Assembly: GCA_963750025.1 (NCBI GenBank)
Contig: CAVVPF010000022.1
Span: forward strand, 7,884 to 71,883
DNA from: an uncultured Chloroflexia bacterium
Lineage (GTDB): Bacteria; Chloroflexota; Limnocylindria; QHBO01
Direction: 5' to 3'
Length of the DNA: 64,000 nt
Shown here: positions 32,820 to 45,904 of the stretch, piece after piece
How positions within the stretch are numbered: the stretch's first letter is position 1
Layout: the number at the start of each line of letters is the position of its first letter
The notes under the pieces: model-generated
What the model was told of the DNA's origin: nothing
What the model saw: the letters and a program-made list of their open reading frames with translations, nothing else
Databases searched by the model: none
Made by a program: the position numbers and the translations under genes

Positions 32820-33353
32820 CTGGACTGATTCCATACCTGCCAGACGCCTGATCGCGTCCGGGCCTGTCTGACATCAGCCTTGCCCGCAGAAAGTGGGAGG
32901 GGGGTCAGACCTCCTGGTTCCCGCTTCGTGTGCCCCCCCGGTCATGTCCCGCCCAGGTCGATGGCGACCTTGGGCCAGGTGTCACCTGTGGGTTGTGAAT
33001 CGGTCCGGCGGAGGCGGCCAGCGAGCGTGCCCGCCAAGAGTAGGGGGGAGTCGTGGAGCGGCGAATGGGTGGCACCGTACAAGCGAAACGTCATCGCGTA
33101 AGGGGCGTGTCGGTCTGTCAAGGTTTCCGTCCGGGGATGTTGACTTTCTAACCGAGTCGCCGGCGCATGAAGGCAAGCCACTTAGAGCCTGTGTATGAAA
33201 TTCGCCCGCAGGCTTGCCGTGTCCAGACGCATGCGCGACGATCGGCCCTGTGTCTGACCCATGGGCCTCCGCGTCCCGATCAGAACGGTCCCATCATTGA
33301 CCTGCGGCGTATTCGGCGAATGGTGGCAGGCGAGGTAACCCAAAGGCACGAGA

Positions 33354-33957
33354 ATGGAGGCACCCATGGGTCAGATCCGGCCGGCGGTTCGCGCCGCGAT
33401 GTCGTCGCTCGAGGCGCGCGACACGGTAGACCGCAGCGACGGCACGCCCCGTGCCCAGCGACTGCGCGCCATCCGGCCTGAGGTCGGCGCCTTCCTGCTG
33501 ACTCTGGCCCTCGCGAGCCGCTCAAGAACCATGGTCGAGATCGGCACCAGCGCCGGTTACTCAACCCTGTGGCTGGCTGCAGCGGCCGAGCACACCGACG
33601 GTCGGGTCATCACCTTCGAGATCGACCCCGCTAAGGTCGAGCTGGCGCGCGCCACGTTCGCCGCCGCGGAGGTCGACGATCGGGTCGAGTTGCGCGCGAC
33701 CGATGGCGGGGTCGGGCTGGTCTCCCTCGCCGGCATAGCCGACCTCGTCTTCCTTGACGCCGAGAAGGAGGACTACCTGCGCCTTCTTCGAGCCGGCCAT
33801 CGAGGCGCTGCGCCCGAGCGGCCTGCTCGTCGCCGACAACCTCATCTCGCACGAGGCCGACCTCGCCGCATTCCGCGAGCGCGCCCTGGCCGATCCACGC
33901 CTGCACGGCCTGGTGGTGCCGATCGGGCGTGGCGAGCTGGTCGCCGTCCGCGTCTGA
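33354..33957 (+). pseudogene. Class I SAM-dependent O-methyltransferase, frameshifted
   Basis: 'VEIGTSAGYSTLWLA...VFLDAEKEDYL' continues in another frame as 'FFEPAIEALRPSGLLVADNLI...'. A 1-nt insertion lies near 33776-33782. Confidence 0.7.
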
Positions 33958-34530
33958 CCTGCACCCAGGGTCGAGCTTGTGCCCCGCCACTCACCGATCA
34001 GACAGACTGGGAGGCTGTCTTCACGCGCCACCGCGACACGTTCTATGGCACGAAACGGTCTATCTCGAACGGGAGTTTTCATTCACAGGGCCTCAGTACG
34101 CCGGTGGACATGAACTTGCCATCAGGTCATTGCGGCGGCCGTGAGTCCAGTGTCGCCCACCAACCACCCCTTTCACGCTCAAATTGACGGCTTGACTGCT
34201 CCGCGGTGCCCACGACGACCCGCACGTGTGCAGTGCGCAACCAGTCGGCGACGCGTGTCGTCGCCGACGACCACGCCGAGCCGGCGGTCTGTGGTCAGGA
34301 AGACCTCGTCGCATGGCCGGACGGTGGCAGAGCCGGCGACGCCGGCTCCTGCGGGATCTCCCCGAGACGGCGGTAGTGGAAATCCCTGATTGACGGCCGG
34401 CGCGGCGGCAGCCAGCATCGGTCCAGGAGGTGAAACCGATGCAGATCCTGCGTGCCAGCCTGGTGCGGCTCCCGTTCGTGGCCCTGGCGGCGCCGGCGGC
34501 GGCGCCGTCGCTGCTCACCGGTCCCGTGCA

Positions 34531-39641: not shown

Positions 39642-39718
39642 GTCCCCGTAGCTCAGTGGACCAGAGCGGCTGCCTTCTAAGCAGCGGGTCGCAGGTTCGA
39701 ATCCTGCCGGGGACGCCA
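39642..39718 (+). tRNA. tRNA-Arg (anticodon TCT), CCA encoded
   Basis: Manual cloverleaf: acceptor GTCCCCG/CGGGGAC, D arm GCTC-AGTGGACCA-GAGC, anticodon arm GCTGC-CTTCTAA-GCAGC, variable GGGTC, T arm GCAGG-TTCGAAT-CCTGC, discriminator G, then CCA. Confidence 0.95.
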
Positions 39719-39728
39719 TAGCAACCGA

Positions 39729-39962
39729 GACGGTCTCGGGCAGCGCGACAAGGAGATGATCGCCACGCGCGTCTCGTACGCCAACGCCTGCCGCTACTGC
39801 TCTGCGGCCCACGCCGGCCGGGCGATGCTGCTGGGCGTGCCGGAGGCGATCATGGAGGCCCTCCAGGTGGTGGCCATGTTCAGCGCCTTCAACCGGATGG
39901 CCGATGCATTCGGCGTCGAGTTCGCCGTGCCTGCGCCGGTGGCTGAGGCCGCCCGCGCCTAG
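39729..39962 (+). pseudogene. 5'-truncated carboxymuconolactone decarboxylase/AhpD-family gene
   Basis: 'LGQRDKEMIATRVSYANACRYCSAAHAGRAMLLGVPEAIMEAL' corresponds to the central-to-C-terminal CMD core (CxxC..H). The reading frame runs straight into the tRNA 3' end, so the N-terminal part is missing. Confidence 0.5.
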
Positions 39963-40970
39963 GTGAACAGGCGTCGCCCGGCCTCCTGGAGCGCCGGCAC
40001 GCCGCGGATGTCGGAATCGAGGAGCGGTACCACCGCGCGCACGTCGCCGTCGAAGGTTTCGCCGATCTCGCGCAGGTAGCCCTTCTGCATCGCAATTCGG
40101 TTGCGGACGAACTCGCCGCCCTCGCCGGTGCCCTTCGTCTGCGTGGCATCGATCACCATGTTGACGATCACGCCGCCGACCGGGATCCCGAAGTCGGTGA
40201 ACCAGCCGATGAAGCGGCGGATCACCGCGATGGGCAGCGCCTCGGGCAGCGTCACGAAGAAGAATGCCGTCTTGGCCGGGTCGGTCAGCAGCTCCCGGGC
40301 ATGCTCGATCCGCCCGCGGAAATCGACGAGGTAGGTCATCAGCGGGTCTTCCTCCTTCTTCTTCGTGAAGGAGAGGGCCTCGCGCAGGGTCTGCGCCTCC
40401 TCGCGCGACTTCAGCATCTTGCTGACCCACAGGCCGTAGACCTTGCTACATGCCCAGCAGGCGGCGGGCGTTGGCGGTGGGCGCCGTGTCGAAGACGTAG
40501 ACGTCGTACTCGCCGCGGAACATGAGGTCGACCATGTTCTCGAACATCGCCGATTCCTCGAACGCCGGGTTGGTCGTGGCCGCCTCGACAAACTCATCGG
40601 CCTTGGTTTTGATCTCGGCGAACTTGAGGAACCACTGGCAATCTTCTCGCGGATTTCCCGCTTGGAGCGTTCGATCGCCTCGCTGGTGTCGATCTCCAGC
40701 GCCCAGAGGTTCTCGACGCCGTTCACCGGGGTCTGCTTGCCGAAGACGTCCTGATCCAGCAGGCCGGAGAGCGAGTGGACTGGATTGGTGGAGGCCAGCA
40801 GCACGCGCTTGCCCCTGGCGCGCCAGCTCGACCGCCGTCATGCCGGCCATGGCCGTCTTGCCGACCCCGCCCTTGCCACCGAAGAAGACATAGCGCAGGC
40901 CTGGGTGGGCGGTCATGAAGTCGGCCATCGAAGTGCTGACCAGGCGGGTCGGATCGGTCGCGACGCTCAT
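39959..40970 (-). pseudogene. ArsA/Get3-like ATPase, copy 2, three frameshifts
   Basis: P-loop 'FFGGKGGVGKTA'. The segments 'RVLLASTNPVHSLSGLL', 'QWFLKF...FDTAPTANARRLLGM' and 'SKVYGLWV...AFFFVTLPEALPI...' lie in different frames. The joins are near 40815, 40640 and 40448. Confidence 0.8.
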
Positions 40971-41988
40971 CGTGGCACCTCTCCGTACATCAGCGTGGCG
41001 ACGCGCTCGATCATCTCCAGCCCGGTGACGTCGCGCTCCAGCTCGGGGACGTGAGCGCGCACGTCGCGCCCCAGCTCGCGCTCGATCTCGGCCAACTGGC
41101 CGCGTTGCATCTTCATCCGGTTGCGCAGGTAGGCCGGCACCCCCTCGCTGTCGAGTGACTCGGGCAGGACGCGATTGACGATGTAGCCGGCGACCGGCAC
41201 ATCGAAGCTTGGCGAACATCTCGGCTGCCTTGCGGGTGTCGATGAGGATCATCTGCTCGGGCACGACCACGAAGAAGAAGGCGGTCCGATCTCGATCGGT
41301 CAGGATGCGGGAGGCGGCGTTGATGCGCTGCCGGATGTACTGGAGCTCGGCCAGGATCTCGTCCTCGGCCACCTCCTTCTGGCGCCGCATCCGTGCAGCC
41401 ACCTCCTCGTACTCGCGCATCTCCTCACGAAGGTGGGTGATCTTGCCGATCCACTCGTCGTAGATCTTGGCCATCGACAGGTAGTAGAGGGCGTGGCCCA
41501 GCGGCACGAGGTCGTAGATGTAGTAGTCGTAGTCGCCCTCGGACAGGATGTCGACCACGGCGTCGAAGATCGCCGACTCCTCCATCGCCGGCTCGGCGCT
41601 GGCGGCGGAGATGTAGTCCTCGATCTCCTCGGGCACCTTCTCGAGCCCGTACATGTCCAGGATCTTTGGCGCGCACCTCATCCTGGTAGTCGTTGATGTG
41701 GCGGTCGGCGTCGATCTCCTGGGCCCACAGGTTGTCCATGACCTTGACCGGGCCCTTGCCGAAGATATCGGTCTGGAAGATGTCGGACAGGCTGGCCTGG
41801 GGGTCGACGCTGAAAACCAGGACGCGCTTGCCCTGCTTGGCCAGCCAGTAGCCGGTCGCCGCCGAGAAGGTCGTCTTGCCGAGCCCGCCCTTCCCCCCGA
41901 ACATGATGTAGCGGCGATCAGGGTGGGCGTTGAAGAAGTCGGCCAGCGCCGTCGTGCGGCCCTTGCCCGCCTCAGTCTGCACGGTCAT
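40967..41988 (-). pseudogene. ArsA/Get3-like ATPase, copy 1, two frameshifts
   Basis: P-loop 'MFGGKGGLGKTT'. The frames join near 41665 ('...DEVRAK|ILDMYGLEK...') and near 41208 ('...AEMFAKL|DVPVAGYIVNRVLPE...'). ATGA overlap with copy 2. Confidence 0.8.
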
Positions 41989-41990
41989 GG

Positions 41991-42281
41991 CTAGAACATC
42001 GCATCGGTCACATCCTTCTCGCGCAGCATGCTTCGCTTCCAGGTCGAGATCTGGGGCACGACGTAGGGGAGCAGGCGCAGGGAGTAGTAGGGCGGCAGGA
42101 TCGGCACCCCGACCAGGTCGCCCATGGTGATCAGGATGAAGAGGTGCTCCATGCTCGCCCGGCTGCGGAGGGCGGAGCGGGTCATGTCGTGGGCGGCCAT
42201 CCCGTAGGTGACCTCCCGGAGCTTCCAGACCAGCCCACGCAGCCCGCCCGAGCGCTCCTCGGGTTGCTCTTGGTCAGCCAT
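41991..42281 (-). CDS. Small hypothetical protein with an 'ILPPYYSLRLLPYVVPQ' motif (paralog 1)
   Basis: 96-aa ORF immediately upstream of the ArsA-like pair and paralogous to 42296-42589. Confidence 0.6.
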   Translation of the reverse strand: MADQEQPEERSGGLRGLVWKLREVTYGMAAHDMTRSALRSRASMEHLFILITMGDLVGVPILPPYYSLRLLPYVVPQISTWKRSMLREKDVTDAMF

Positions 42282-42295
42282 CGTTGCCTCCCGGC

Positions 42296-42589
42296 TCAGA
42301 CGCCATGCAGCTCATAGTCGTGCTCCTCGCTGAAGTGGCGTTCGCGCAGGACGCGGCGCTTCCAGGTGGCGACCTGCGGGACGACGAATGGCAGCAGGCG
42401 CAGTGAATAGTATGGCGGAATGATCGGCAGACCGATCATGTCGCCGACGCAGGTCACCATGAAGATCGTCTCCAGGTTGGCGCGCATGGCGACCGACTGG
42501 CGCGCGAACTCGTGCCCGGTCATGCCGTAGAGGAATTCGCGCAGCGCAGCTCGCAGCCCTCCATCTGCCGCGGCGCGCTCGTTGGTCAC
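42296..42589 (-). CDS. Small hypothetical protein with an 'IIPPYYSLRLLPFVVPQ' motif (paralog 2)
   Basis: GTG start at 42589, preceded by a GGGAGGG RBS. It aligns with paralog 1 over its whole length. The longer track ORF (to 42886) overlaps the divergent gene and is unlikely. Confidence 0.6.
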   Translation of the reverse strand: MTNERAAADGGLRAALREFLYGMTGHEFARQSVAMRANLETIFMVTCVGDMIGLPIIPPYYSLRLLPFVVPQVATWKRRVLRERHFSEEHDYELHGV

Positions 42590-42689
42590 GGGCCCTCCCG
42601 ACCAATGTGGATCGGTCCAATCTAGCACCCGCCCGCCAGAGCCGCTTGACCGATGCCCGCCATGCTCCGTACAGTCGCCTGCACTACTC

Positions 42690-43358
42690 ATGTCCGATCT
42701 CTCGGCCTTTGGCGCCTCGCTCGCGATCGCGCTGCTCGCGGTGGTCATGCTGTGGTTCGCCTTCGGCACCCAGCGCAACATCCGGCGCGGCAACGAGCTG
42801 CTCCGCTGGCTCCAGGATGGGCTCCCGCTGCTCGGCGAGCGGACGACCCTGCGCTGGCTGGGAAGCTCGGTCGTCGAGCTGCGCATCTCGCAGCCCGAGG
42901 CGCCGTTTCGCGAGGCCGAGCTCCTGGTGGTGCTCGAGCCGCGCGACCTCGGCGCGCTGTGGGCGCTCGCTCACCGCCGCGGCCGCCGCGACTTCCTCGT
43001 CTTGCGCGTGCGCCTCGTGCGGGCGCCGCGCTTCAACGCCGATCTCGCTGATCCACGGAGCTGGACAATGGGCGATGTGCGGCATCGTTGGGCGGGCGAG
43101 CGCGCGGAGTCGAGCTGGAGCGGGACGTGGGGCGGGACGCGGCTCGAGGCGCGTCACGACGCGACCGTGAAGCTCGACGAGTTGCGCGGCTGGTGGGAGC
43201 AGCTGGCCAGCGTCAGCGGAGGCGTCTGGCGGATGTCGGTCAGCCCGACCGTGCCGCACCTGGAGCTCCACCTCCTGCCGCCGGCCGACGGCGTCAGCTC
43301 GCTGCGGCTGATGGGAGCCATTCGCGAGGTGGCGCGCCAGGTCGCGCCGGGCGGATAG
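42690..43358 (+). CDS. Hypothetical membrane-anchored protein
   Basis: The ATG at 42690 gives an N-terminal TM 'FGASLAIALLAVVMLWFAF'. It is divergent from the small-protein/ArsA operon. Confidence 0.55.
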   Translation: MSDLSAFGASLAIALLAVVMLWFAFGTQRNIRRGNELLRWLQDGLPLLGERTTLRWLGSSVVELRISQPEAPFREAELLVVLEPRDLGALWALAHRRGRRDFLVLRVRLVRAPRFNADLADPRSWTMGDVRHRWAGERAESSWSGTWGGTRLEARHDATVKLDELRGWWEQLASVSGGVWRMSVSPTVPHLELHLLPPADGVSSLRLMGAIREVARQVAPGG

Positions 43359-43414
43359 CAAACGAGTGGGGCGGGCCCGGAGGCCCGCCCCACCCAAGGC
43401 GAAGCGATACAGCT

Positions 43415-45313
43415 TCAGGCGCCCGGCGCCGCCGGCGCGGGAGCCGGCTCGGCAGGCAAGGCCCGGTAGCGGCCCCAGGCCTTCCACGCGTCGAAGGCGA
43501 TGAACAGCGCCGCGACGACCAACAGGAGCGAGATCGCAATCATCGCCCAGGCGCCGATAATGGAGATCGGCGCCGAGCCCTCGCGGATCACGATCGTGAC
43601 GTAGAGGTTGTACGCCGTCACCAGGCTCGCCGCCACGGTGGTCACGTACATGAACAGCATGGGGATCCCGGCATAGGCCGGGTTGCGCCGCGTCGAGGCC
43701 AGCCACAGCGTCACCAGCAGCAAGCTGAGCGCTGCCAGCAGCTGGTTCGAGGCGCCGAAGAGCTGCCACAGGTAGACCCACGTGCCGGACAGCACCAGGG
43801 CCAGCACCAGGACCGACGAGATGATCGTCGCGATGTGCTGATTCTTGAAGCCGACCCACGTGTCGCCCAGCCACTCGCCCAGCGTCACGCGCATGACGCG
43901 AAAGACGAGCTGCACCACGGTCAGCACGATCACAACGAACGCGCCGAAGCCGAGTGCCGTCCCGAAGGCCAGCGGCACGAGGCCGAAGGTCGCCACGTTC
44001 AGCAGGTTGCCGACCCCCGCGGCGAACGCCCCTGCTCCAGCCCCGCCGGCGATCGCCACCGCCGTCAGCGACAGGAGGCCCAGCGTGTTCTCGCTGAACA
44101 TGCCGCCCGCGCCGACCGGCAGCGCATCGGTCTCGTACTGAAGCTGGCGAGCGGTGCCGACCGAGCCGATGAGCGCGTGCCAGCCGGAGATGGCGCCGCA
44201 GGCGATGGTGACGAAGAGCATGGGCCACAGCGTCTGGATGGCGCCCGTGGCGACCTTGGGGGCGAAGTCGGTGAACGCCTCGAGCTTGAAGGTGGCCACC
44301 TCCGGTTGGAAGAACGGTGCCAGGATGGCGCCCACCGCCGAGAGGCCAATGGCCAGGGCGGTGATCCAGAAGCCGATGTAGTTGACCGGCTGCGCGAAGC
44401 GCCAGATCGCCAGGTTGGTGCCCAGGTAGCTGAAGGCCAGCAGGAAGAGGCACCAGAACACGAAGCTGGGCAGGACGTTGATCTCGCCCGTGGCGGCGTT
44501 GAAGACCGCCGTTGACGGTCGCTGCTTGGTCTCGGGGTTGACCGCCGGAACGCGCGGATCGGCGTTCGTCGGGTCGACCACGGTGTAGATGGGAGTTCCA
44601 TCGCCGTTCAGCGTGGCATTGATGCCGCGCACGACACCGCTCACCGGCCCGGTCTCCCAGGTCGGTGGCTGGCCCTGCTGGAAGGTCACGCCCAGCGGAC
44701 CGAGCACCATGGCCAGCAGCGTACTGACCACGATGAGGAGGGTGACCTGGATCAGGTCAACCTTTCGGCGGTAGATGAGGTAGCCACCGAGCATCCCCAT
44801 CGCGGCCAGCACCAGGATCCCGAAGGGGACGTCGGGTCGGGCGTCCAGCACGGCCGCCATGATCCCGACGAAGGCGCCGCCGATTAGCAACAGGTAGAAG
44901 AAGATAAACACGAACAGGATCGTCCGCGTGCGCGGGCTGATGAGCCGGTAGGAGATGGCCGAGAGCGAGTTCCCATCGTTGCGCACGCTCATCATGATCG
45001 CGCTGTAGTCGCTCGCCCAGCCGATGAAGGTGACGCCGATCATCAGCCAGAGGATCGATGGCAGCCAGCCCCACAGGTTGGCGGCGGTGATGACGCCGAC
45101 GATGGGGCCGGCGGCGGCGATCGACTTGAAGTGGTAGCCGTACAGGATGAAGCGGCTGGTCGGCATGAAGTCGGCCCCGTCCATGTACATGGTGGCCGGC
45201 GTCGCGCGCTTCGGGTCCGACTGAATGACGACCCTATCGATGCGGCGGGCGTAAAAGTTGTAGGCGAGGTAGATGACCACCGCGCCGATGACCACGACCC
45301 ATAGTGAACTCAT
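43415..45313 (-). CDS. cstA: Carbon starvation protein A (CstA-family peptide/pyruvate transporter)
   Basis: 'MSSLWVVVIGAVVIYLAYNFYARRI...', 'YGYHFKSIAAAGPIVG' and a polytopic topology are typical of CstA. Confidence 0.9.
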   Translation of the reverse strand: MSSLWVVVIGAVVIYLAYNFYARRIDRVVIQSDPKRATPATMYMDGADFMPTSRFILYGYHFKSIAAAGPIVGVITAANLWGWLPSILWLMIGVTFIGWASDYSAIMMSVRNDGNSLSAISYRLISPRTRTILFVFIFFYLLLIGGAFVGIMAAVLDARPDVPFGILVLAAMGMLGGYLIYRRKVDLIQVTLLIVVSTLLAMVLGPLGVTFQQGQPPTWETGPVSGVVRGINATLNGDGTPIYTVVDPTNADPRVPAVNPETKQRPSTAVFNAATGEINVLPSFVFWCLFLLAFSYLGTNLAIWRFAQPVNYIGFWITALAIGLSAVGAILAPFFQPEVATFKLEAFTDFAPKVATGAIQTLWPMLFVTIACGAISGWHALIGSVGTARQLQYETDALPVGAGGMFSENTLGLLSLTAVAIAGGAGAGAFAAGVGNLLNVATFGLVPLAFGTALGFGAFVVIVLTVVQLVFRVMRVTLGEWLGDTWVGFKNQHIATIISSVLVLALVLSGTWVYLWQLFGASNQLLAALSLLLVTLWLASTRRNPAYAGIPMLFMYVTTVAASLVTAYNLYVTIVIREGSAPISIIGAWAMIAISLLLVVAALFIAFDAWKAWGRYRALPAEPAPAPAAPGA

Positions 45314-45420
45314 GCAACCCTCCCGTTCAAAGGAGCGCGCACAAATGGCGGGGGCAGTCACCCGGATGGTGAGCCTGCCGCGCCGTCTAGCGCGCTGGCG
45401 TCCCCATATGGATCTTCCCT

Positions 45421-45813
45421 TTAGGCCACTCCTCTCCCTCCCGAGGACGACACGTAGCGGTCGATGACGCGATCGACGGCCTCAAAATCGGTACCGATCG
45501 CCGTCTCGCGCCCAGCCACGATCGTTGCCGGGTAGCGGCGCACGCGGTGGCGCAGCGACTTCCAGACCCCCTCGATCGAGGCGGCGTCGATGACGGAGAC
45601 GGCGAGCCGGTCGGGGTGGCGTTCGAGCAGGCGATGGACCCAGTCGGACACCTCCTGGTATTCATGGGCCAGGTTGTCCGGCAGCGAGCTGGAGGCGGCC
45701 TCGCGTTGCACGGGCTGGCCGATGCCGATGCCCTCGAACACCACCTCGCAGTGCTGGCAGTGGCGGAAGACCGTCGGCGCGTAGGTGATGATCTGTACGC
45801 TCACGTGCTGCAT
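45421..45813 (-). CDS. Hypothetical CxxC protein, possibly thioredoxin-fold
   Basis: 'VQIITYAPTVFRHCQHCEVVF' and the C-terminal 'RYPATIVAG' suggest a thioredoxin-like fold. This is a weak call. Confidence 0.45.
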   Translation of the reverse strand: MQHVSVQIITYAPTVFRHCQHCEVVFEGIGIGQPVQREAASSSLPDNLAHEYQEVSDWVHRLLERHPDRLAVSVIDAASIEGVWKSLRHRVRRYPATIVAGRETAIGTDFEAVDRVIDRYVSSSGGRGVA

Positions 45814-45904
45814 CGAACTTCCCATAAGGACATCAGATCCATCGGTTCCGCGCAGGCCGCGAAGACAGGGTACACCCACCTGACAAGGGAGCTGGGGCTG
45901 CGGC

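What the first reader, a model, noticed from the sequence alone, without database searches (positions are those of the whole stretch)
39959..42589. Operon of two small 'PPYYSLRLLP' paralogs and two ArsA/Get3-like ATPases, with both ATPases heavily frameshifted
On the minus strand are two ~97-aa paralogs. Each has a polar N-terminus and then a hydrophobic 'M(G/V)D(L/M)(V/I)G(V/L)PI(L/I)PPYYSLRLLP(Y/F)VVPQ(I/V)(S/A)TWKR' segment. Two tandem ArsA/Get3-family P-loop ATPases follow them (ATGA-coupled to each other). A membrane-anchored unknown protein is encoded divergently.

ArsA/Get3 proteins include chaperones for hydrophobic tail-anchored clients, so small hydrophobic partner proteins are suggestive. 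I do not recognise the small-protein family. The two ATPase genes carry five indels in 2 kb while the small genes are intact. The system is either recently inactivated or locally mis-assembled.
Basis: partly seen in the sequence, partly recalled or inferred. Interest (0 to 1): 0.6.

Follow-up and report, generated by a model that had tools for sequence, protein, structure and literature searches.

The report
CstA-CstX-ArsA module with assembly frameshifts
The two small proteins and the two Get3/ArsA-like ATPases are real and belong to a widespread gene cluster built around a CstA membrane transporter that was described in 2010 but never tested, and the five frameshifts in the ATPase genes are most likely consensus errors of an error-prone metagenome assembly, not gene decay.

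Summary
The minus strand carries two 96-97-aa paralogues and then two ATGA-coupled ArsA/Get3-type ATPase genes. Five insertions (+1, +1, +1, +2, +1) break the ATPase genes. A membrane-anchored protein is encoded divergently.

The small proteins are not an unknown family. Their close homologues carry Pfam DUF7990, which I equate with "CstX" of Castillo & Saier 2010. In 80 of 80 related loci from four phyla, the order CstY-like | CstX | CstX | ArsA1 | ArsA2 is kept wherever the contig reaches that far. cstA is adjacent in 65 of the 80. The published, untested hypothesis is that the ATPases drive or gate CstA through CstX.

The frameshifts are probably artefacts:
- The assembly has about 15 frameshift-like switches per 100 kb, against 2.2 in short-read loci. 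About 72% are +1-type.
- They also split housekeeping genes such as purB.
- No public contig carries any of the five insertions.
- A 99.6%-identical contig lacks two other single-base insertions elsewhere in the window.
- Three of the five sites look like merged alleles.
- dN/dS of the ATPase pieces is normal.

Verdict: a known kind of module, of low interest.

The parts
45421..45813 (-). 130-aa CxxC protein ('P152'), first gene of the cassette
   Evidence: It lies upstream of cstA in 34 of 80 related loci. A homologous domain is fused to a DUF7990 domain in P0177 and P0223. It has no Pfam or NCBIfam hit.
43415..45313 (-). CstA-family permease (carbon starvation protein A)
   Evidence: It hits PF02554 at E 4.7e-102. 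It is adjacent to the module in 65 of 80 loci and is unbroken in the window.
42690..43358 (+). Divergent 222-aa protein with an N-terminal membrane anchor (CstY-like, CCDC47-like fold)
   Evidence: It is conserved next to CstX in most of the 80 loci. Kyte-Doolittle hydropathy reaches 2.38 at residues 7-25. The AlphaFold2 model has pLDDT 94.2. The best Foldseek PDB hits are 7tm3_4 (E 8.3e-6, TM 0.63), 6w6l_7 and TtfA 6t84.
42296..42589 (-). CstX-1 (DUF7990 paralogue, 97 aa)
   Evidence: The L001 orthologue carries PF25952. It gives a weak NF041419 hit.
41991..42281 (-). CstX-2 (DUF7990 paralogue, 96 aa)
   Evidence: It has 4874 homologues, and all 120 listed carry PF25952. There are 428 clusters at 50% identity. 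It is 72-97% identical across four phyla. The AlphaFold2 model has three helices at pLDDT 66.
40967..41988 (-). ArsA1: Get3/ArsA-type ATPase with intact catalytic signatures, broken by two +1 insertions
   Evidence: It hits PF02374 in three frames. Orthologues keep GGKGGLGKTT, VDPQASL and YDLVPLGHALYYL (74 of 74). The nearest solved structures are archaeal Get3 3UG6 and 3ZQ6 (E about 1e-60).
39959..40970 (-). ArsA2: Get3/ArsA-type ATPase with degenerate switch I and II, broken by three insertions (+1, +2, +1)
   Evidence: Orthologues carry STNPVHSL (Asn in place of the switch-I Asp) and FDTAPTANARRLL (66 of 73). The nearest solved structures are listed.
41665..41665 (.). Insertion 1 (+1, extra A in an AAA run) in ArsA1
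   Evidence: It is absent from L001 and G045. It is absent from the contigs of X2, X4, X5 and X12 that cover the site, including a 60-nt contig with no mismatches. X1 and X3 have no contig across this site.
41209..41210 (.). Insertion 2 (+1) in ArsA1, at a codon that reads Arg in all the relatives
   Evidence: The window reads AAGC where the relatives read CGC. That it is a merger with an AAG (Lys) allele is my inference; no relative or contig with AAG was seen at this site.
40809..40812 (.). Insertion 3 (+1) in ArsA2, at a polymorphic Gly-Lys/Arg codon pair
   Evidence: The aligner places the gap at 40809, 40810 or 40812 in different runs.
40635..40640 (.). Insertion 4 (+2) in ArsA2; the window reads GCCAG where relatives read GCC or CAG
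   Evidence: L001 has GCC and G045 has CAG. In run X4 the two-letter gap is placed at two different positions, which fits both alleles being present in that sample (table 4).
40448..40448 (.). Insertion 5 (+1, extra T that creates an in-frame TAG) in ArsA2
   Evidence: It is absent from L001, G045 and every contig laid across the site.

Best explanation
Window 39959-45813 is one copy of a widespread cassette:
- a 130-aa CxxC protein
- a CstA-family permease
- a divergently encoded, membrane-anchored CstY-like protein
- two CstX (DUF7990) paralogues
- two single-domain Get3/ArsA-type ATPases

Shown here:
- The gene set and order are conserved across Chloroflexota, Actinomycetota, Acidobacteriota and Proteobacteria.
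- ArsA1 keeps the catalytic switch-I Asp and switch-II Gly-His. ArsA2 has lost both.

Inferred, about 45% likely:
- The two ATPases form an asymmetric heterodimer, comparable to the two halves of ArsA.
- The dimer docks on the membrane parts through the CstX pair and the CstY-like anchor.
- It couples ATP binding and hydrolysis to transport by CstA, or to gating of CstA. This is the Castillo-Saier hypothesis.

The five frameshifts are, at about 80%, consensus errors of an error-prone and probably strain-mixed assembly. If so, the organism most likely has intact ATPase genes.
For: Identity of the module:
- The listed homologues carry PF25952.
- 80 of 80 loci keep CstX-CstX-ArsA1-ArsA2 as far as their contigs reach, and most also have the divergent 222-aa gene.
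- cstA is adjacent in 65 of 80 loci.
- Fusions exist: CstA C-terminus + CstX (P0168), and P152 + CstX (P0177, P0223).
- The literature describes cstA-cstX-(cstY)-arsA operons.
- The active/degenerate ATPase motifs are conserved.

Frameshifts as artefacts:
- A codon-usage HMM finds 424 frameshift-like switches in the 2.73-Mb assembly, or 15.5 per 100 kb. The rate is 2.2 per 100 kb in 538 kb of short-read loci and 7.4 in Microflora Danica (MFD) loci.
- About 72% are +1-type, like all five events here.
- At least 12 other places have 4 or more switches within 2 kb.
- In a random sample of five sites, three were checked as one split gene. purB (Lyase_1 and ADSL_C in different frames) rests on Pfam. 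MutS2 and a Mur-ligase/cyanophycin-synthetase-like gene rest on one Pfam hit plus motifs read by eye on the other piece.
- An X4 contig 99.6% identical over 33300-34097 lacks single bases at 33787 and 34053. The first of these sits at an HMM-flagged switch (33779/33780).
- No public contig contains any of the five insertions, although contigs at 98% or more match on either side of most of the sites.
- Sites 2-4 sit where the relatives differ from one another or from the window, and the window sequence looks like merged alleles.
- dN/dS of the in-frame ATPase pieces is 0.13-0.27, the same as CstA (0.13-0.16) and the CstY-like gene (0.20-0.32).
Against: - All five events fall in the 2 kb of ATPase genes. 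None falls in the other roughly 4 kb of the same cassette. If errors were uniform across the cassette, p is about 0.005.
- The cassette is accessory in this genus (1 of 29 genomes), so decay after acquisition is biologically plausible.
- The positive predictive value of the HMM is only about 60-80%.
- For the mechanism there is no experiment anywhere. At least six loci with 4 kb or more of flank have the CstX-ArsA core without an adjacent cstA. Two of the eight genomes checked showed no cstA at all, though these are possibly incomplete MAGs.
Confidence: 0.7

Rival explanations
1. Real, recent pseudogenisation. The cassette was acquired horizontally, and its two ATPase genes are being inactivated in this lineage while the other genes are kept.
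For: - The five events are confined to the ATPase genes and absent from the rest of the cassette.
- The cassette occurs in only 1 of 29 genomes of the genus.
- Its flanks are unrelated to those of a 95%-identical copy in G045.
Against: - All five events are insertions, which matches the genome-wide +1 bias. Natural decay in bacteria is expected to favour deletions (established knowledge).
- dN/dS is not raised.
- Housekeeping genes such as purB are split in the same way.
- None of the eight runs laid (seven of them soil or permafrost metagenomes) has a contig with any of the insertions.
- Three sites look like merged alleles.
Confidence: 0.17
2. Get3-like biogenesis module, an extended form of the first reader's idea. 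The ATPase pair would act as a chaperone or targeting factor. It would deliver or assemble hydrophobic segments (CstX hairpins or CstA helices) at a membrane receptor formed by the CCDC47-like protein. It would not power transport.
For: - The ATPases are closer to archaeal Get3 (E about 1e-60 and 1e-49) than to E. coli ArsA (E about 1e-30).
- The divergent protein's confident model best matches chains of the ER multipass-translocon structures 7TM3 and 6W6L.
- CstX has a borderline-hydrophobic segment, with hydropathy 1.6-1.7.
- The CstX-ArsA core can sit away from cstA.
Against: - CstX occurs fused to a CstA C-terminus and to the soluble P152 domain. That is odd for a post-translationally targeted client.
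- The Get3 CXXC zinc motif is absent, because both ATPases lack cysteine (read from the sequences).
- Fold similarity is not function, and the chain identity (CCDC47) is inferred.
- The sequence match to PF07946 is negligible: 1 of 53 members, E 0.14.
Confidence: 0.25
3. Programmed frameshifting or another form of recoding restores the ATPase reading frames.
For: None beyond the existence of the frameshifts.
Against: - There are five sites with no shared slippery motif.
- None is conserved in any relative.
- One site creates an immediate stop codon.
Confidence: 0.01

Closest known systems
cstA-cstX-(cstY)-arsA-homologue operons (Castillo & Saier 2010, Int J Microbiol, PMC2963123)
   Same: - A CstA permease.
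- A small protein of about 90 aa with one hydrophobic segment, sometimes duplicated.
- A single-pass protein of about 210 aa.
- One or two adjacent single-domain ArsA homologues of about 330 aa.
- No ars genes.
   Different: - In the paper CstY was seen only in five archaea. Here a CstY-like gene is present in most bacterial loci. I did not test whether the two are homologous in sequence.
- The paper states that CstX is never found without CstA. Here at least six loci lack an adjacent cstA.
- The paper does not mention the 130-aa CxxC gene.
ArsAB arsenite pump (E. coli R773 ArsA, PDB 1F48)
   Same: - An ATPase of the same P-loop family.
- It has two non-equivalent nucleotide sites.
- It associates with a secondary carrier that can also work alone.
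   Different: - Here there are two separate polypeptides rather than one fused protein.
- There are no cysteines at all, so no metalloid site.
- The carrier is CstA, not ArsB or Acr3.
- The sequence match is weaker (E about 1e-30) than the match to Get3.
Archaeal and eukaryotic Get3/TRC40 (PDB 3UG6, 3ZQ6, 5ZME)
   Same: - These are the best sequence matches (E 1e-49 to 1e-60).
- Same size, and the same P-loop and switch architecture.
   Different: - No CXXC zinc motif.
- An obligate pair of one active and one degenerate subunit, instead of a homodimer.
- No evidence for tail-anchored clients.
PAT complex subunit CCDC47 of the ER multipass translocon (chains in PDB 7TM3 and 6W6L)
   Same: The divergent 222-aa protein is predicted with high confidence to have an N-terminal membrane helix plus an alpha/beta domain. 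This superposes on those chains (Foldseek E 8.3e-6, TM 0.63 on the query).
   Different: - 12% sequence identity.
- No significant hit to PF07946.
- Shorter than CCDC47.
- The chain identity was inferred, not checked.
BagA/BagB (Rv3679/Rv3680) of Mycobacterium tuberculosis (PDB 6BS3)
   Same: Two adjacent Get3-like ATPases forming a heterodimer.
   Different: - Only a distant match (E about 1e-6).
- Scores lie far below the NCBIfam cut-offs.
- I know of no CstA or CstX partner for BagAB.

Membership tests
CstX / Pfam DUF7990 (PF25952) | Match to the family model | tested here: met
   All 120 listed homologues, 73-97% identical, carry precomputed PF25952. Both L001 orthologues are annotated PF25952:DUF7990. 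The local Pfam copy returned no hit, presumably because the model is newer than that copy. The evidence is therefore indirect.
CstX / Pfam DUF7990 (PF25952) | About 90 aa with one hydrophobic segment | tested here: met
   The proteins are 96 and 97 aa. The Kyte-Doolittle 19-residue maxima are 1.62 and 1.70, which is borderline for a membrane span.
CstX / Pfam DUF7990 (PF25952) | Encoded next to an ArsA homologue and a cstA gene | tested here: met
   Both are adjacent in the window. ArsA is adjacent in all 80 loci as far as the contigs reach. cstA is adjacent in 65 of 80. At least six loci with ample flank lack it.
CstX / Pfam DUF7990 (PF25952) | Sequence identity with the CstX proteins listed in the 2010 paper | not testable with these tools
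   The paper's CstX sequences could not be fetched. I infer the equivalence from size, position and gene context.
cory-CC-star protein (NF041419) | Score above the curated cut-off (80 bits) | tested here: not met
   The scores are 31.7 and 30.0 bits. This indicates a related domain, not membership.
ArsA/Get3/TRC40 ATPase family (PF02374, TIGR00345) | Family model match and a deviant Walker A (GGKGGxGKT) | tested here: met
   See for the model matches. The P-loop is conserved in both subunits.
ArsA arsenite-pump ATPase (TIGR04291) | Two fused halves, metalloid-binding cysteines and ars gene context | tested here: not met
   - These are single-domain genes.
- The score is 64 bits against a cut-off of 650.
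- The intact orthologues contain no cysteine (sequences).
- There are no ars genes nearby.
Get3 tail-anchor targeting factor | CXXC zinc-mediated homodimer | tested here: not met
   Neither ATPase contains a cysteine. Two different subunits are always paired.
Get3 tail-anchor targeting factor | A hydrophobic client-binding groove and binding of tail-anchored clients | not tested
   No complex model or experiment was possible, because only single-chain prediction is offered.
CstY (Castillo & Saier 2010) | About 210 aa with one membrane span, encoded in cstA-cstX clusters | tested here: met
   The protein is 222 aa with an N-terminal span (hydropathy 2.38). It is conserved beside CstX. Sequence homology to the archaeal CstY was not testable.
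CCDC47 (PF07946) | Sequence-family match | tested here: not met
   Only 1 of 53 orthologues hits, at E 0.14.
CCDC47 (PF07946) | Fold similarity | tested here: met
   The model has pLDDT 94.2. Foldseek gives 7tm3_4 at E 8.3e-6, probability 1.0, TM 0.63, and 6w6l_7 at E 6e-3. Both entries contain CCDC47 (for 7TM3). That these particular chains are CCDC47 is inferred.

The most novel reading that the evidence does not exclude
The module may be a prokaryotic counterpart of eukaryotic membrane-protein biogenesis machinery. An asymmetric Get3-like ATPase pair would work with a CCDC47-fold membrane anchor and small hydrophobic CstX subunits, which recall the PAT complex of CCDC47 and Asterix. Together they would assemble or quality-control a multipass permease (CstA), rather than power transport.
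Probability: 0.12. Interest if true: 0.8.

Novelty: already known. Interest (0 to 1): 0.2.

Why it matters
The module is very widespread in soil bacteria. CstX-2 is 72% or more identical across four phyla. The system couples a Get3/ArsA-type ATPase pair to a secondary carrier, and nobody has tested how it works. It therefore remains a good experimental target.

This particular copy adds nothing new to that question. Its one distinctive feature, the frameshifts, is most likely a warning about the quality of this assembly. Many apparent pseudogenes in this genome, including housekeeping genes, should not be read as biology.

Tried and rejected
- The local Pfam copy gave no hit for the small proteins, the divergent protein or the 130-aa protein. 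NCBIfam gave only a sub-threshold cory-CC-star hit.
- Paper searches for PF25952 and DUF7990 found nothing.
- The run that produced the assembly was not among those found. The best holders are a strain about 97% identical.
- I looked for att-like direct repeats around the cassette and found none convincing. No integrase gene was seen nearby.
- Tetranucleotide composition did not separate contig C22 from the rest of the bin. Mis-binning is therefore neither shown nor excluded.
- The AlphaFold2 model of CstX-2 alone has low confidence (pLDDT 66) and was not used for fold search.
- P0001, a tandem CstX-2/CstX-1 'fusion' on an 800-nt contig, looks like a junction at the shared LRE-x-x-YGM motif. 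I did not rely on it.
- Programmed frameshifting is rejected: there is no shared motif, and the sites are absent from relatives.
- In one search the ArsA2 piece b was taken in the wrong frame. It contributes about 57 mis-phased codons to the ArsA2 dN/dS value. The ArsA1 values are unaffected.
Full report
**What is there.** The minus strand of window 39959-42589 carries four genes in a row.
- A 97-aa ORF at 42296-42589.
- A 96-aa ORF at 41991-42281.
- Two ArsA/Get3-type ATPase genes, at 40967-41988 and 39959-40970. The second starts inside the stop codon of the first (ATGA).

The two small proteins are about 47% identical and share the core GDxxGxPIxPPYYSLRLLPxVVPQxxxWKR. The ATPase genes hit PF02374 and TIGR00345, but in seven in-frame pieces. 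A 222-aa protein with an N-terminal membrane helix is encoded divergently at 42690-43358.

**The frameshifts.** I aligned the region to intact relatives: JGI contig L001 at 89% DNA identity and genome G045 at 95.7%. The breaks are five insertions in the window:
- +1 near 41665
- +1 near 41209
- +1 near 40810
- +2 near 40635-40640
- +1 at 40448

Public contigs of eight runs were laid on the region. Every contig that crosses one of these sites lacks the extra letters. One is a 60-nt contig identical to the window apart from the extra A at 41665. Contigs at 98% identity or more match on either side of most of the sites and stop, or are clipped, at several of them.

**Is the assembly error-prone in general?** The genome is a 2.73-Mb, 37-contig MAG, 84.5% complete, with contigs up to 359 kb.

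I trained a codon-usage model on its long ORFs and ran a seven-state Viterbi segmentation. It recovers four of the five known sites. The fifth creates an immediate stop codon and is missed by design.

- It finds 424 same-strand frame switches where the upstream frame stays open for more than 30 nt. That is 15.5 per 100 kb.
- The same scan gives 2.2 per 100 kb on 538 kb of loci from short-read assemblies.
- It gives 7.4 per 100 kb on 161 kb of Microflora Danica (MFD) loci. From my own knowledge these are Nanopore MAGs.
- About 72% of the switches are of the +1-insertion type.
- At least a dozen other places have four or more switches within 2 kb.

I drew a random sample of five sites from contigs other than C22 and checked them.
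- purB is split: Lyase_1 sits in one frame and ADSL_C in the next. This rests on Pfam.
- MutS2 is split. One piece hits MutS_V; the other I read by eye.
- A Mur-ligase/cyanophycin-synthetase-like gene is split. One piece hits Mur_ligase_M; the other I read by eye.
- One site is an ordinary gene boundary.
- One site is unresolved.

Elsewhere in the window, an X4 contig 99.6% identical over 33300-34097 lacks single bases at 33787 and 34053. The first lies at a switch the scan had flagged (33779/33780).

**Clues from the five sites themselves.** At site 4 the window reads GCCAG where L001 reads GCC and G045 reads CAG. In run X4 the two-letter gap is placed at two different positions, which fits both alleles being present in that sample. 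At sites 2 and 3 the window likewise differs from the relatives, which read Arg codons there. The window could be read as a merger with a Lys (AAG) allele, but no such allele was seen. This is what a consensus built from mixed strains would produce.

dN/dS of the in-frame ATPase pieces against three relatives is 0.13-0.27. That is the same range as the intact neighbours: CstA 0.13-0.16 and the CstY-like gene 0.20-0.32. One ArsA2 piece was mis-phased in that call.

Taken together I put about 80% on assembly artefact. The main counter-argument is that all five events fall in the 2 kb of ATPase genes and none in the other 4 kb of the cassette.

**What the operon is.** CstX-2 has 4874 homologues at E ≤ 0.01. 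All 120 listed carry Pfam PF25952 (DUF7990), as do both L001 orthologues. A profile search finds 428 clusters at 50% identity.

I fetched 80 loci from species-representative genomes of Chloroflexota, Actinomycetota, Acidobacteriota and Proteobacteria. Every one has the order CstX-1, CstX-2, ArsA1, ArsA2 as far as the contig reaches, and most have the divergent 222-aa gene.

It is adjacent in 65 of the 80 loci. A 130-aa CxxC protein (45421-45813) precedes it in 34.

Natural fusions tie these genes together:
- P0168 joins a CstA C-terminus to a DUF7990 domain.
- P0177 and P0223 join the 130-aa domain to a DUF7990 domain.

**Literature.** Castillo & Saier 2010 (PMC2963123) described these clusters from genome context. 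Their description includes:
- cstA with cstX, a protein of about 90 aa with one membrane span, sometimes duplicated;
- in archaea, cstY, a protein of about 210 aa with one membrane span;
- one or two adjacent single-domain ArsA homologues of about 330 aa.

They proposed that the ATPase energises CstA through CstX. No later paper on this CstX turned up. Earlier agents of this scan reached the same identification in other genomes. I treat that only as a lead.

I infer the equivalence of DUF7990 with CstX from size, position and context.

One refinement to the paper: at least six loci with ample flanks have the CstX-ArsA core without an adjacent cstA. Six of eight such genomes have cstA elsewhere, and two MAGs show none.

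**Anatomy and likely mechanism.** Across orthologues the two ATPases differ in a consistent way.
- ArsA1 keeps GGKGGLGKTT, a switch-I Asp (VDPQASL) and a switch-II Gly-His (YDLVPLGHALYYL, 74 of 74).
- ArsA2 keeps the P-loop. It has Asn in place of the switch-I Asp (STNPVHSL) and Ala-Asn in switch II (FDTAPTANARRLL, 66 of 73).

In Get3 the corresponding Asp-to-Asn change blocks hydrolysis (established knowledge). I therefore read the pair as one active and one nucleotide-binding subunit. This is comparable to the non-equivalent halves of ArsA.

Neither protein contains a cysteine. That excludes both an ArsA-type metalloid site and the Get3 CXXC zinc clasp. The nearest solved structures are archaeal Get3 (3UG6, 3ZQ6; E 1e-49 to 1e-60), ahead of E. 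coli ArsA (E about 1e-30) and far ahead of BagAB (E about 1e-6).

CstX-2 alone models as three helices around the PPYY turn, at low confidence (pLDDT 66). Its hydrophobic stretch is borderline for a membrane span.

The divergent protein models very confidently (pLDDT 94.2). Its best PDB matches are chains of the ER multipass-translocon structures 7TM3 and 6W6L (E 8.3e-6, TM 0.63), followed by the mycobacterial transporter accessory factor TtfA. I infer that these chains are CCDC47. Sequence support for that is negligible.

The best-supported working model, at about 45%, is an ATPase dimer docked through CstX and the anchor protein onto CstA, to drive or gate transport. A Get3/PAT-like assembly role is the main rival, at about 25%.

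**Context.** The cassette (window about 39893-45881) is 94-96% identical to a stretch of G045. The flanks on both sides are unrelated there. Only 1 of 29 genomes of the window's genus has CstX. The cassette is therefore accessory and probably moves horizontally. A tRNA-Arg lies about 240 nt beyond ArsA2, but I found no att-like repeats.

**Verdict.** The small-protein/ATPase linkage is real and strong. However, the system is already described, although experimentally untested, and its distinctive feature here is most likely an assembly artefact.

Noticed in passing
window 39893-45881: The roughly 6-kb cassette (P152 through ArsA2) is 94-96% identical in DNA to G045:C33, but similarity stops at both ends. 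L001 and G047 also have different flanks. Only 1 of 29 genomes of the window's genus has CstX. This looks like a horizontally moving accessory cassette.
   Followed up: partly
whole assembly G000 (e.g. C20:71,600-78,000; C4:700-4,200; C25:47,200-49,600): There are about 424 frameshift-like frame switches genome-wide, mostly of the +1 type and often clustered. They include splits in purB (C9:267949) and MutS2 (C20:70553). Apparent pseudogenes in this assembly should be distrusted.
   Followed up: partly
window 33787 and 34053: A soil-metagenome contig 99.6% identical over 33300-34097 lacks one base at each of these two places. The first is at a frame switch in a gene unrelated to the finding.
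   Followed up: yes
window 45421-45813 (-): A 130-aa protein with a CxxC motif and no family assignment precedes cstA in Chloroflexota and Actinomycetota loci. It occurs fused to a DUF7990 domain in P0177 and P0223. It is probably a further subunit of the module.
   Followed up: partly
L023, L041, L048, L055, L068, L088: The CstX-CstX-ArsA-ArsA core occurs without an adjacent cstA. Neighbours include topoisomerase I, histidine kinases and others. cstA is elsewhere in most of these genomes and was not found in two MAGs. This is contrary to the 2010 statement that cstX never occurs without cstA.
   Followed up: partly
window 39642-39718 (+): A tRNA-Arg(TCT) lies about 240 nt beyond the end of ArsA2, close to the cassette boundary. 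No flanking direct repeats were found and no integrase gene was seen nearby.
   Followed up: partly
My scan also flags three frame switches here (57329, 59078, 59342). I did not look at what the stretch encodes.
   Followed up: no
L064, L071, L085, L087, L090 (MFD MAGs): Several Microflora Danica MAG copies of the same module also show split ATPase or CstY-like genes in tblastn. This fits a technology-linked frameshift problem rather than biology.
   Followed up: partly
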